From contig CAYLNC010000003.1 in NCBI GenBank assembly GCA_964385145.1, positions 1 to 33,979 on the forward strand: a stretch of DNA of 33,979 nucleotides, written 5' to 3'. This DNA comes from an uncultured Candidatus Saccharibacteria bacterium. GTDB lineage: Bacteria; Patescibacteriota; Minisyncoccia; Phycocordibacterales; JAACPR01. The notes under the pieces were generated by a model. The model was not told the origin of the DNA, searched no databases, and was given only the letters and a program-made list of their open reading frames with translations. Of the stretch, positions 1-430 are shown piece by piece (position 1 is the stretch's first letter; every line of letters begins with the position of its first letter). A program made the position numbers and the translations under genes.

Positions 1-2
1 GA

Positions 3-41
3 TTTAAGAGCCGAACAGAGATGATTATCGGTCTTTATAAA
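3..41 (+). repeat. Degenerate copy of the Y-RNA-like repeat unit; folds only as a short hairpin
   Basis: Contains GAGCCGA (8-14) and GATTATC (23-29) like the three downstream units. Here 5-14 pairs with 28-37 with one mismatch. The C is paired rather than bulged, and there is no tRNA-like insert. It lies at the window edge. Confidence 0.3.
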
Positions 42-71
42 ATACTCATCTCTAACTCCTTGCTCTTATTA

Positions 72-215
72 GATTTCTGAGCCGACTGTTTTGGGTTATC
101 GTCTATTAAACGAGTGATTGCAGGTTCGAGTCCTGCCTCCCCCACCAAACACACGGGGGAGTGGCCTAAGGGTAAAGGCACTAAAAGTCCAAAATGATAC
201 TTGCTTAGAAAATAC
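72..215 (+). ncRNA. Y RNA-like ncRNA with tRNA-like module (YrlA-type), copy 1
   Basis: Outer helix 76-85/201-209 has unpaired C83 flanked by C82:G203 and G84.U202, A85:U201 (Ro-binding helix architecture). Second helix is 88-94/189-195. T arm 120-136 (GCAGG TTCGAGT CCTGC). A 7-bp acceptor-like stem 137-143/155-161 is closed by the loop ACCAAACACAC. D arm 164-179 (GCCT AAGGGTAA AGGC). Confidence 0.65.
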
Positions 216-221
216 AATTAA

Positions 222-342
222 AGATTACGAGCCGATTAGATTAGGTTATCTTGCAAAGGAAAAGGTTCGACTCCTTCATTTTCAATTGAAAATGAACGCT
301 CTATAGGGGAGCAATCCGAGTCTAGTACTTGTTCGTATATTA
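222..342 (+). ncRNA. Y RNA-like ncRNA with tRNA-like module (YrlA-type), copy 2
   Basis: Outer helix 226-235/329-337 has unpaired C233 and compensatory changes relative to copy 1. Second helix 237-245/316-324 has one mismatch. T arm 261-277 with loop TTCGACT. Acceptor-like stem 277-283/288-294 is closed by tetraloop AATT. D arm 298-312 (GCTC TATAGGG GAGC). Confidence 0.6.
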
Positions 343-345
343 GAG

Positions 346-414
346 AATTTTGAGCCGATAGTTTGGGTTATCTAGGACTAAAAAATTATCCAAACTGATA
401 CTTGTTCAAAATAC
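346..414 (+). ncRNA. Short Y RNA-like hairpin ncRNA (no tRNA-like module), copy 3
   Basis: Helix 347-358/402-412 has unpaired C356, with G357.U403 and A358:U402. An internal loop (GATAC on the 3' side) follows, then helix 360-371/385-396, capped by a 13-nt loop. Confidence 0.55.
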
Positions 415-430
415 CTTCCTCTACTTCTAT

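What the first reader, a model, noticed from the sequence alone, without database searches (positions are those of the whole stretch)
1..420. Tandem array of Y-RNA-like genes, two with a permuted tRNA-like (YrlA-type) module
What the sequence shows. The motif GAGCCGA-N(8-12)-G(G/A)TTATC occurs four times (8-29, 80-100, 230-250, 352-372). In copies 2-4 it is answered downstream by ACTTG(C/T)T. Pairing these gives helices 76-85/201-209, 226-235/329-337 and 347-358/402-412. In each helix one C (C83, C233, C356) is unpaired. It is flanked by a C:G pair on one side and by G.U plus A:U on the other. This is the local architecture of the conserved Ro60-binding helix of Y RNAs (GGUC[C]GA / UUGAC).

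Covariation between copies supports the fold. U78:A207 becomes C228:G335. C77:G208 becomes A227:U336. G79.U206 becomes G229:C334 and G352:C407. A second helix also covaries: GTTTTGG/CCAAAAT in copy 1, AGTTTGG/CCAAACT in copy 3, and TAGATTAGG/CCGAGTCTA in copy 2.

Inside copies 1 and 2 the elements run in the order T arm (TTCGAGT or TTCGACT loop), 3' acceptor strand, closing loop, 5' acceptor strand, then a D arm with GG. That is a tRNA whose acceptor stem is capped and whose ends exit through the anticodon-stem position. This is the published YrlA topology (Y RNA with a tRNA mimic lacking a free CCA end).

Copy 1 still carries discriminator A plus CCA in the closing loop (CTCCCCC-A-CCA), exactly like the five genuine tRNAs in this window.

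Three to four tandem paralogs of differing architecture, placed about 14 kb from the cognate rsr gene rather than next to it, is unusual.
Basis: partly seen in the sequence, partly recalled or inferred. Interest (0 to 1): 0.85.

Follow-up and report, generated by a model that had tools for sequence, protein, structure and literature searches.

The report
Phage Y RNA gene array
The first 413 bases are the last four genes of a seven-gene tandem array of phage-encoded Y RNAs (small RNAs that dock onto the Ro60 protein), two of them carrying a tRNA-shaped module; this is a real but already described kind of RNA.

Summary
Window 2-71, 73-212, 223-340 and 346-413 (+ strand) are four Y-RNA genes.

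Covariance models built only from other phages' sequences hit them and nothing else in the 34 kb. Unit B scores 108 bits (E about 6e-26), unit C 54 bits, and units A and D 46 and 39 bits.

All helices covary across about 140 homologues: the basal helix with its bulged C, the upper stem, and the T, acceptor-like and D arms.

In 39 of 66 unit-bearing viral loci, fetched by DNA motif alone, a Ro60 gene lies within 1.6 kb on the same strand.

The window's own Ro60 gene (14726-16333) is about 14.3 kb away. This is atypical, but large phages also scatter such genes.

The array is cut by the window edge. Overlapping metagenome contigs show three more units upstream, seven in all.

Units B and C are YrlA-type and units A and D are short. 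Phage and bacterial Y RNAs, including multi-copy loci, were described in 2014 and 2025. These are therefore new members of a known kind.

They sit in a tRNA and RNA-repair island. Function is inferred by homology: Ro60 docking plus a tRNA-like effector module.

The parts
2..71 (+). Unit A, fourth of the seven-unit array. A short Y RNA with no tRNA module. Basal helix 5-14 with 57-68 and bulged C12; upper stem 17-24 with 46-53; loop begins AUUAUC.
   Evidence: Model R1, built from 40 units of other phage contigs: 45.6 bits, E=1.3e-11. MFE fold z=-2.9.
73..212 (+). Unit B, a YrlA-type Y RNA. Basal helix 73-85 with 200-212 (C83 bulged, G84.U202, A85:U201). Upper stem 87-95 with 188-196. GGUUAUC at 94-100. 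V hairpin 99-102 with 110-113 and a 7-nt loop CUAUUAA. T arm 120-136 (loop UUCGAGU). Capped acceptor-like stem 137-143 with 155-161, whose loop starts A-CCA (144-147). D arm 164-167 with 176-179 (loop AAGGGUAA).
   Evidence: Model R2, built from 34 long units of other contigs: 108 bits, E=6e-26, full length. Rfam YrlA RF02553: 31.5 bits, E=6.5e-5, full-length model, below the gathering score of 69.
223..340 (+). Unit C, a compact YrlA-type Y RNA. Basal helix 224-235 with 329-338 (C233 bulged). Upper stem 237-245 with 316-324. Mini-hairpin 249-252 with 257-260 and a GCAA loop. T arm 262-276 (loop UUCGACU). Capped acceptor-like stem 277-283 with 288-294 (loop AAUU). D arm 298-301 with 309-312 (loop UAUAGGG).
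   Evidence: R2: 53.8 bits, E=2.8e-12. R1: 32.9 bits with the tRNA-like part treated as an insertion. MFE fold shows the same helices.
346..413 (+). Unit D, last of the array. A short Y RNA. Basal helix 347-358 with 402-412 (C356 bulged). Upper stem 360-367 with 391-398.
   Evidence: R1: 39.4 bits, E=1e-9. R2: 36.2 bits through local ends. Fold z=-2.5.
14726..16333 (+). Ro60 (Rsr) gene, the presumed protein partner of the Y RNAs. It lies 14.3 kb downstream on the same strand.
   Evidence: Pfam vWA_Ro60 1.1e-57 and TROVE 1.4e-40. PDB sequence search: E=1e-120 to RO60 chain 9nen_A, 4e-119 to Ro chain 1yvp_A, 7e-118 to the 'Ro sixty-related protein, RSR' chain 2nvo_A.

Best explanation
Window 2-413 is the 3' part of a tandem array of seven phage Y-RNA genes on the + strand.

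What the sequence shows: each unit closes on itself through a basal helix, 5'-nnnGAGC[C]GA paired with UUGYUCnnn-3'. It has one bulged C followed by G.U and A:U pairs.

Inferred by homology: this helix is the docking site for the outer surface of the Ro60 ring encoded at 14726-16333.

Above the basal helix lie an internal loop, an 8-9 bp upper stem ending in GGG/CCC, and the motif UUAUC. This motif corresponds to the conserved YUAY of published YrlA RNAs. Beyond it the units differ.
- Units A and D end in a plain loop (short, YrlB-like or metazoan-Y-like).
- Units B and C carry a tRNA-like module in the published YrlA order: V hairpin, T arm, capped acceptor-like stem, D arm.

Inferred mechanism:
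- The units are probably made from one long + strand transcript together with neighbouring tRNAs. Spacers are only 1-10 nt, and no promoter or terminator signal stands out.
- The transcript is cut into stem-closed RNAs of 68-140 nt.
- Each RNA binds phage Ro60 and uses its distal module to gate the Ro60 cavity or to tether a partner. For B and C that partner would be a tRNA-recognising factor or the host exoribonuclease PNPase, as in the bacterial and phage phiLo Ro60/Y RNA/PNPase complexes.
- Several different Y RNAs would give one Ro60 several specificities.
- The setting (five tRNAs, T4-type RNA ligase 1, polynucleotide kinase-phosphatase, an ATP-dependent ligase) suggests a role in RNA quality control or repair during infection.

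Shown here: the RNA family, its structure and its linkage to Ro60. Not shown: binding, processing and biological role.
For: 1. Four motif copies against 0 expected. All four fold better than their shuffles.
2. Models built without any sequence of this phage hit exactly these four units and nothing else in 34 kb. R1 gives 45.6, 39.4 and 32.9 bits; the next hit is a 14.7-bit hairpin. R2 gives 108 and 53.8 bits; the other hits are T arms of true tRNAs.
3. Covariation on a plain MAFFT alignment of 34 long units: 84% of cells paired against 38-47% when partners are slid. T arm 100%, acceptor-like stem 95.5% with all 7 pairs covarying, D arm 84%, basal helix 90%. On 139 distinct model-aligned hits: 88% against 40-46%.
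4. Unbiased test: 33 short units defined by sequence pattern only, with no pairing filter. The two pairs just outside GAGC are formed in 31/33 and 33/33 units with 3-5 pair types. The mean is 4.45 of 6 flank pairs against 2.68 for mismatched partners.
5. Linkage to Ro60. Of 66 viral loci with units, fetched by DNA motif alone, 39 have a Ro60 homologue in the slice, always on the same strand and within 1.6 kb. Of the 27 bacterial-genome pattern hits that I searched with R2, 7 were hit, and all 7 are among the 9 loci (of 120) with a Ro60 homologue in the slice. The abundant Collinsella pattern matches are absent from the Ro60 list, and the one I searched gave no R2 hit.
6. The same model hits the region upstream of Ro60 in mycobacteriophage Bxz1 (76 bits), in Rhodococcus phage Trina (5 units) and in Streptomyces phage Beuffert. 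Chen 2014 reports YrlA-like RNAs in 22 phages, including mycobacteriophages known to encode Ro60.
7. Rfam YrlA matches unit B over the full model length.
8. Ro60 in the window has both domains.
9. Published precedent: YrlA with T/AS/D/V arms and YUAY (PMC4201824); phage Ro60 binding phage Y RNAs and host PNPase (PMC12135203).
Against: - No expression, processing or binding data exist for this phage.
- Rfam YrlA is far below its gathering score (31.5 against 69), and the default Rfam scan reports nothing at 1-420.
- The published criterion of lying within 4 kb of rsr is not met (14.3 kb).
- The published motif GNCGAA is complete only in unit A; units B-D have GCCGAC or GCCGAU.
- The V hairpin is only 56-62% paired in the family alignments, so that element is weakly supported.
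- The seeds of model R1 were pre-selected for at least 8 of 10 basal pairs. One search is therefore biased and should not be counted; one search replaces it.
- No promoter-like or terminator-like sites above chance, so the transcription units are unknown.
Confidence: 0.88

Rival explanations
1. The tRNA-like parts of units B and C are precursors of working, permuted or split tRNAs. The Y-type stems hold the two halves together. RNase P and 3' trimming open the capped acceptor stem to expose the encoded A-CCA, and the product acts in translation or as an aminoacylated molecule.
For: - Unit B encodes discriminator A plus CCA right after the 3' acceptor strand, as do all five real tRNAs of the window.
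- N-CCA at that position occurs in about 17 of about 95 long units, where about 1.5 would be expected by chance.
- Many V hairpins have 7-nt loops with U at position 2 and a purine at position 6, like anticodon loops.
- M. smegmatis YrlA is cleaved by RNase P and receives CCA (PMC4201824).
- An RNA ligase and a kinase-phosphatase are encoded nearby.
Against: - Most long units, including unit C, have no CCA and no anticodon-like loop.
- The V hairpin covaries poorly.
- The conserved, Ro60-linked basal helix would be pointless for a tRNA.
- The D arm is not joined to an anticodon stem, so a canonical tRNA cannot form without excision and ligation, for which there is no evidence.
- The 'anticodon' of unit B would be AUU, which is not a normal bacterial anticodon.
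Confidence: 0.05
2. The units are decayed remnants of tandem tRNA genes (pseudogenes, or tRNA dimers read out of register) with no function tied to Ro60.
For: - Partial sub-threshold tRNA hits at 80-136 and 155-284, and a permuted-tmRNA hit at 120-161.
- The array lies in a tRNA cluster.
- Chen 2014 warn that tRNA dimers can mimic YrlA.
- RefSeq labels part of the equivalent Trina region 'tRNA-OTHER', flagged as a pseudogene.
Against: - The acceptor-like strands of one unit are complementary to each other, 95% paired and covarying. This would not hold for the end of one tRNA and the start of the next.
- Units A and D have no tRNA part at all.
- The basal and upper stems covary.
- The strong linkage to Ro60 is not expected for pseudogenes.
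Confidence: 0.03
3. The repeats act at the DNA level or as cis-acting transcript signals (terminators, processing sites for the tRNA cluster, recombination sites) rather than as stable RNAs.
For: The units are short, tandem and closely spaced in a non-coding gap. There are no promoters above chance between them.
Against: - Strand-specific G.U pairs are conserved (G84.U202 and its equivalents; 125 of 135 scored sequences have G.U at that pair). G.U pairs only make sense in RNA.
- No terminator-like sites on the + strand.
- The elaborate tRNA-like tertiary-structure nucleotides (GG in the D loop, UUCGA in the T loop) are conserved.
Confidence: 0.02

Closest known systems
YrlA (Rfam RF02553; Chen et al. 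2014, RNA 20:1715, PMC4201824)
   Same: Units B and C share with YrlA:
- a 5' GNCGA motif in a basal helix;
- the YUAY (here UUAU) motif;
- the V hairpin, T arm, capped acceptor-like stem and D arm in the same order;
- the same strand as rsr.
A phage origin is already reported for 22 phages. My model R2 also hits the Ro60-upstream region of mycobacteriophage Bxz1.
   Different: - They lie 14.3 kb from rsr instead of within 4 kb.
- They score below the Rfam gathering score (31.5 against 69), as does the Bxz1 unit (32.5).
- The sixth base of GNCGAA is C or U.
- Unit B encodes A-CCA in the cap loop.
- Unit C is unusually compact (118 nt, 4-bp T stem, GCAA mini-hairpin).
YrlB and other short bacterial or phage Y RNAs (S. 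Typhimurium and M. smegmatis YrlB; Thermus phage phiLo Yrl1 and Yrl2, PMC12135203)
   Same: Units A and D are stem / internal loop / stem / loop RNAs with the CGA motif and no tRNA module. They are encoded beside tRNA-like Y RNAs. For phiLo, binding to the phage Ro60 and to host PNPase was shown in vitro.
   Different: No binding data exist here. There are seven genes rather than two. They are not adjacent to Ro60.
Metazoan Y RNAs (Rfam RF00019) and nematode stem-bulge RNAs (RF01656)
   Same: The order and spacing of elements are the same. The Rfam Y_RNA consensus is GGUCCgA-N7-GUGGGUUAu...UCCCAC...CACUuGAC. The phage consensus is GAGCCGA-N7-GGGUUAUC...CCCC...AACUUGCUC. Both have the bulged C followed by G.U and A:U. 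Homologous short units in contig L030 score 24-31 bits against these metazoan models.
   Different: These scores are below threshold. The window's own units give no hit to these models at E up to 10. Metazoan Y RNAs have a 3' U tract, are transcribed by Pol III and have no tRNA module. Whether the resemblance reflects common descent or a shared Ro60 constraint is open.
Deinococcus radiodurans Yrn1 (Rfam RF01053)
   Same: It is a Ro60 (Rsr) binding basal helix plus a T-arm-like element, and it tethers Rsr to PNPase.
   Different: The T and D elements are oriented differently (PMC4201824). It gives no hit in the window.
Permuted tRNA genes and two-piece (permuted) tmRNA (Rfam RF04321)
   Same: The order T arm, 3' acceptor strand with CCA, loop, 5' acceptor strand is the same. 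The sub-threshold hit scores 24.3 bits at 120-161.
   Different: There is no tag reading frame, no pseudoknots and no room for them. The segment is embedded in a Y-type stem.

Membership tests
Bacterial/phage Y RNA of the YrlA type | A 5' motif GNCGAA(N0-1)G in or next to a helix formed by the RNA's two ends | tested here: inconclusive
   GNCGA is present in all four units inside a covarying end-to-end helix. The full GNCGAA is present only in unit A. Units B-D have GCCGAC or GCCGAU. In the wider family the sixth base is mostly A (R1 consensus GAGCCGAA).
Bacterial/phage Y RNA of the YrlA type | tRNA-like domain: T arm, capped acceptor-like stem (AS) and D arm in that order, with tRNA tertiary-contact nucleotides | tested here: met
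   Units B and C: R2 gives 108 and 53.8 bits. The Rfam YrlA alignment covers the full model length for unit B. UUCGA T loops and GG D loops are read directly. The helices covary in the family. Units A and D lack the domain and are not YrlA-type.
Bacterial/phage Y RNA of the YrlA type | Score at or above the Rfam RF02553 gathering threshold | tested here: not met
   31.5 bits against 69. The units upstream of Ro60 in Bxz1 and Beuffert also fail (32.5 and 34 bits). This threshold therefore seems to exclude phage members in general.
Bacterial/phage Y RNA of the YrlA type | Encoded within about 4 kb of the Ro60 gene and on the same strand (criterion used by Chen et al. 2014) | tested here: not met
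   The strand is the same, but the array ends at 413 and Ro60 starts at 14726. No unit lies nearer to Ro60. In 39 other viral loci the distance is at most 1.6 kb.
Y RNA in general (functional definition) | Bound by Ro60 in vivo or in vitro | not testable with these tools
   Only genomic linkage of the family to Ro60 can be shown.
Y RNA in general (functional definition) | Basal helix with a single bulged C and conserved flanking pairs (the Ro60 site of metazoan Y RNAs) | tested here: met
   C:G, bulged C, G.U and A:U are present in all four units. In 135 scored homologues these positions are CG 132, GU 125 and AU 107.
Metazoan Y RNA (Rfam RF00019) and nematode sbRNA (RF01656) | Match to the family covariance model at its gathering score | tested here: not met
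   No hit in window 1-600 at E up to 10. Related units in L030 reach 24.2 bits (gathering score 38) and 31.0 and 26.9 bits (gathering score 38).
tRNA | Cloverleaf with open acceptor ends, detected by ARAGORN or the Rfam tRNA model | tested here: not met
   ARAGORN finds five tRNAs, none in 1-420. The Rfam tRNA model gives only partial, sub-threshold hits there (22.8 and 17.6 bits against a gathering score of 29).
Two-piece (permuted) tmRNA | Tag reading frame and pseudoknots after the 5' acceptor strand; Rfam RF04321 threshold | tested here: not met
   24.3 bits against 47, covering only model positions 36-93 of 213. ARAGORN reports no tmRNA.

The most novel reading that the evidence does not exclude
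The most novel reading not excluded has two parts.

1. Large phages run a multi-Y-RNA system that is unhooked from the rsr gene and built into their tRNA and RNA-repair island (Rnl1, PNKP, ligase). In it, tRNA-shaped Y RNAs with an encoded A-CCA and anticodon-like V loops are opened by RNase P. They then serve as Ro60-tethered tRNA mimics: decoys or sensors for host anticodon nucleases, or guides that bring damaged tRNAs to repair or decay.

2. The shared GGGUUAUC / CCC / ACUUG layout means that bacterial and phage Y RNAs are true homologues of metazoan Y and stem-bulge RNAs. This is contrary to the statement in the 2015 review (PMC4726728) that they are not homologous.
Probability: 0.15. Interest if true: 0.7.

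Novelty: new member of a known kind. Interest (0 to 1): 0.4.

Why it matters
Phage Ro60/Y RNA systems are little studied: there is one structural paper and one bioinformatic survey.

This locus adds an uncultivated phage with seven Y RNAs of four different designs and one Ro60. They sit beside tRNA genes and a T4-type tRNA-repair set. That makes it a convenient natural test of the idea that different Y RNAs give one Ro60 ring different partners.

There are also practical points:
- The default Rfam scan misses all of these genes.
- At least one public phage annotation carries none of them as Y RNA genes and marks a tRNA pseudogene across two of them (Rhodococcus phage Trina).
- The two models built here recover about 140 distinct members from a small sample of viral contigs.

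The sequence resemblance of the short units to animal Y RNAs is a lead on the origin of the family.

Tried and rejected
- blastn of window 1-4000 against GenBank phages found no match.
- A search for relatives of the downstream PAS protein in viral contigs found none.
- The first loose DNA pattern (14 fixed bases) gave mostly single chance hits. Two tighter patterns were needed.
- The same pattern in bacterial genomes was swamped by a conserved Collinsella sequence. It is absent from the Ro60-positive loci, and the one example I searched gave no R2 hit, so I treat it as a false positive.
- RNAalifold on the short-unit MAFFT alignment recovered only the basal helix, because the 3' strand of the upper stem was out of register. 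The upper stem had to be given by hand and re-aligned by the model.
- (basal-helix counts on A1) is biased, because I had chosen seeds with at least 8 of 10 pairs. One search replaces it.
- I first read the hairpin after UUAUC as a retained anticodon arm and a new feature. Chen 2014 already describe it as the V stem-loop, with YUAY at its start, and its covariation is weak.
- The promoter and terminator scan found nothing above chance.
- Two reviews (PMC10870794, PMC6047535) and the supplement of Chen 2014 are not held. I could therefore not compare unit sequences with the published list.
- The permuted-tmRNA and tRNA-dimer readings were considered and rejected (see the rival explanations).
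Full report
**1. What is in the sequence**

The motif GAGCCGA-N8-G(G/A)TTATC occurs at 8-29, 79-100 and 229-250. Three exact matches were found against none in 100 shuffles. A fourth copy with a 7-nt spacer lies at 352-372.

Each copy is answered downstream by (C/A)CTTG(C/T)T(C/T), at 58-65, 199-206, 327-334 and 400-407. That heptamer is not rare in the window; only its position matters.

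The four units are 2-71 (A), 73-212 (B), 223-340 (C) and 346-413 (D). Each folds into an end-to-end helix enclosing a second helix, with z-scores from -2.5 to -3.0 against shuffles. The starts given for copies 2 and 3 are off by one base.

**2. The array is larger than the window shows**

The protein encoded at 431-871 is found on short metagenome contigs. Two of them, L185 and L187, extend upstream of window position 1, which corresponds to L185 position 1324.

The non-coding gap between a small ORF and the PAS gene is about 850 nt and holds seven units:
- L185 930-1012 (short);
- L185 1015-1210 (long, with a different insert that is not tRNA-like);
- L185 1229-1311 (short, the variant GGACCGA...GGTTACC...CTTGTC);
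- the window's four units.

tRNA-Thr, tRNA-Cys and tRNA-Pro lie upstream, and tRNA-Val lies downstream. The two contigs are 98% identical. Almost all differences fall in the loop of the first unit, while its stems are kept.

**3. Independent models**

Pattern scans of IMG/VR returned many contigs with the same motif combination. From these I built two covariance models, using no sequence of this phage. R1 came from 40 short units. R2 came from 34 long units.
- With filters off, R1 hits window 2-71 (45.6 bits), 346-413 (39.4 bits) and 223-340 (32.9 bits). The next hit is an unrelated 14.7-bit hairpin.
- R2 hits 73-212 at 108 bits (E about 6e-26) and 223-340 at 53.8 bits. The remaining hits are the T arms of the five real tRNAs.

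**4. Structure support**

On the plain MAFFT alignment of the 34 long units, 84% of cells form pairs, against 38-47% when partners are slid by 1-3 columns. By helix the figures are:

| Helix | Cells paired |
|---|---|
| T arm | 100% |
| Acceptor-like stem | 95.5% (all seven pairs change on both sides) |
| D arm | 84% |
| Basal helix | 90% |
| Upper stem | 72% |

RNAalifold predicted the basal helix, T arm, acceptor-like stem and D arm on its own. On 139 distinct model-aligned hits, 88% of cells pair, against 40-46% slid.

My short-unit seeds had been chosen for good basal pairing, so one search is biased. I repeated the test on 33 units defined by sequence pattern alone. The two pairs just outside GAGC are formed in 31/33 and 33/33 units with three to five pair types. 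The six flank pairs average 4.45 against 2.68 for mismatched partners.

The hairpin between UUAUC and the T arm is only 56-62% paired.

**5. Linkage to Ro60**

The window encodes a complete Ro60 at 14726-16333. It has the TROVE and vWA_Ro60 domains, and it matches solved Ro60 chains at E=1e-120 (9nen_A), 4e-119 (1yvp_A) and 7e-118 (the Rsr chain 2nvo_A).

Of 66 viral loci with units, all fetched by DNA motif alone, 39 contain a Ro60 homologue in the fetched slice. It is always on the same strand and 0-1.6 kb away.

In bacterial genomes the bare pattern is dominated by a Collinsella sequence. It is absent from the Ro60-positive loci, and the one example I searched is not hit by R2. I searched 27 of the 120 genome loci with R2. 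Seven were hit, and all seven are among the nine loci that carry Ro60.

This is a good specificity control. It is also the strongest argument that the family is a Ro60 partner.

**6. Relation to what is published**

Chen et al. 2014 (PMC4201824) described YrlA RNAs in 254 bacteria and 22 phages. [quoted passage not shown] A 2025 paper showed that a Thermus phage Ro60 binds two phage-encoded Y-like RNAs and host PNPase (PMC12135203).

Rfam's YrlA model aligns to unit B over its whole length but scores only 31.5 bits against a gathering score of 69. The default Rfam scan therefore reports nothing here.

The same holds for mycobacteriophage Bxz1. R2 gives 76 bits for the unit upstream of its Ro60, while Rfam gives 32.5 bits.

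Rhodococcus phage Trina has five units upstream of Ro60. Its RefSeq record annotates none of them as Y RNA and places a 'tRNA-OTHER' pseudogene across two of them. Arrays of five to eight units also occur in other viral contigs.

Mixed tandem Y RNA loci are therefore not new. This one is a further and rather large example.

**7. What is atypical**

- The array is 14.3 kb from Ro60 and no unit lies closer. In most smaller contigs the units abut Ro60. In very large viral contigs, units occur at several separate places, often among tRNAs.
- The neighbourhood is an RNA-repair island. It holds T4-type RNA ligase 1 (2342-3397), polynucleotide kinase-phosphatase (6945-7847), an ATP-dependent ligase (11773-12945), five tRNAs, and an IF3 homologue that overlaps the Ro60 start.
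- Unit B keeps A-CCA after the 3' acceptor strand, as do all five tRNAs. N-CCA at that position recurs in about 17 of about 95 long units.

**8. Resemblance to animal Y RNAs**

The Rfam consensus for metazoan Y RNA is GGCuGGUCCgAagguaGUGGGUUAu...uUCCCACugCUa..cACUuGACUaGCC. The phage short-unit consensus is agagguGAGCCGAAuacugagGGUUAUC...CCCCcucaguaAuuAACUUGCUCaccucu. Both have the same order and spacing of elements.

Short units of contig L030 score 24.2 bits against Y_RNA, and 31.0 and 26.9 bits against a nematode stem-bulge RNA model. All are below threshold.

The window's own units give no such hit. A 2015 review states that bacterial Y RNAs are not homologous with vertebrate ones, and that UUAUC is a conserved loop motif of sbRNAs and vertebrate Y RNAs (PMC4726728).

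This is a lead, not a result.

**9. Mechanism**

Shown here: a conserved, covarying RNA family of two architectures, genomically tied to Ro60, with four members in the window.

Inferred from the named precedents:
- the basal helix docks on Ro60;
- the distal module gates or tethers a partner, PNPase being the documented one;
- the tRNA-like module is recognised by tRNA enzymes;
- the units are co-transcribed and then trimmed. Spacers are 1-10 nt, and no promoter or terminator signal stands above chance.

Rival readings each fail on specific data. These readings are tRNA pseudogenes, working permuted tRNAs, DNA-level repeats and permuted tmRNA. The contrary data are complementary and covarying acceptor-like strands within a unit, units without any tRNA part, conserved G.U pairs, Ro60 linkage, and the absence of tmRNA features.

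**10. Verdict**

It belongs to a known kind, so these are new members. Interest is moderate. The main value lies in the seven-gene array, its RNA-repair setting, the annotation gap, and the unexplored likeness to animal Y RNAs.

Noticed in passing
L185 930-1311 (upstream of window position 1; window 1 = L185 1324): Three more Y-RNA units precede the window. One is short. One is about 195 nt and carries an insert that is not tRNA-like, with an internal direct repeat GCTGACAnT(T)GGGAAAGACTA. One is a variant with GGACCGA...GGTTACC...CTTGTC, whose basal pairs changed on both sides.
   Followed up: partly
L030 1319-1064, minus strand (viral contig IMGVR_UViG_3300035698_010295), just upstream of a Ro60 gene: Two RNAs of about 128 nt fold as ordinary cloverleaves with open 7-bp acceptor stems. 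Their anticodon arm is replaced by a long arm that carries the Ro-type motif (GGGUCGA) in a helix capped by a 4-nt loop. This is the circular permutation of the YrlA layout. The Rfam tRNA model scores them 48 and 43 bits with 59-64 nt inserts, and ARAGORN calls nothing. I did not find this topology described in the papers I read.
   Followed up: partly
window 2342-3397, 6945-7847, 11773-12945, 14253-14747: These genes sit with five tRNAs and Ro60 on one strand, forming an RNA-repair and translation island: T4-type RNA ligase 1, polynucleotide kinase-phosphatase, an ATP-dependent ligase, and an IF3 homologue whose end overlaps the Ro60 start.
   Followed up: partly
window 431-871: A 146-aa protein that consists almost entirely of a PAS domain (PAS_9, 7.8e-16) is encoded directly after the Y RNA array. 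Its role is unknown.
   Followed up: no
L173 758-873 (296-kb viral contig IMGVR_UViG_3300035698_035366): A wcaG RNA motif (RF01761, 56.2 bits, above its gathering score of 42) lies immediately 3' of a Y unit and 1.6 kb upstream of Ro60.
   Followed up: no
L191 (NC_042040.1, Rhodococcus phage Trina) 2166-3428: Five Y-RNA units lie upstream of the Ro60 gene in the RefSeq record and none is annotated as such. A 209-nt 'tRNA-OTHER' pseudogene feature straddles two of them.
   Followed up: yes
L233 4835-4879 and about 90 other Collinsella loci: A sequence conserved across Collinsella genomes matches GAGCCGA..GGTTATC..GGTTCAA. None of these loci is among those with a Ro60 homologue in the slice. The one I searched (L233) gave no R2 hit. 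Its nature is unknown.
   Followed up: partly
L249 494-1167 (Scytonema hofmanni) and L269 7190-7911 (Heteroscytonema crispum): Cyanobacterial chromosomes carry tandem arrays of three to four units that match R2, next to their Ro60 genes.
   Followed up: no
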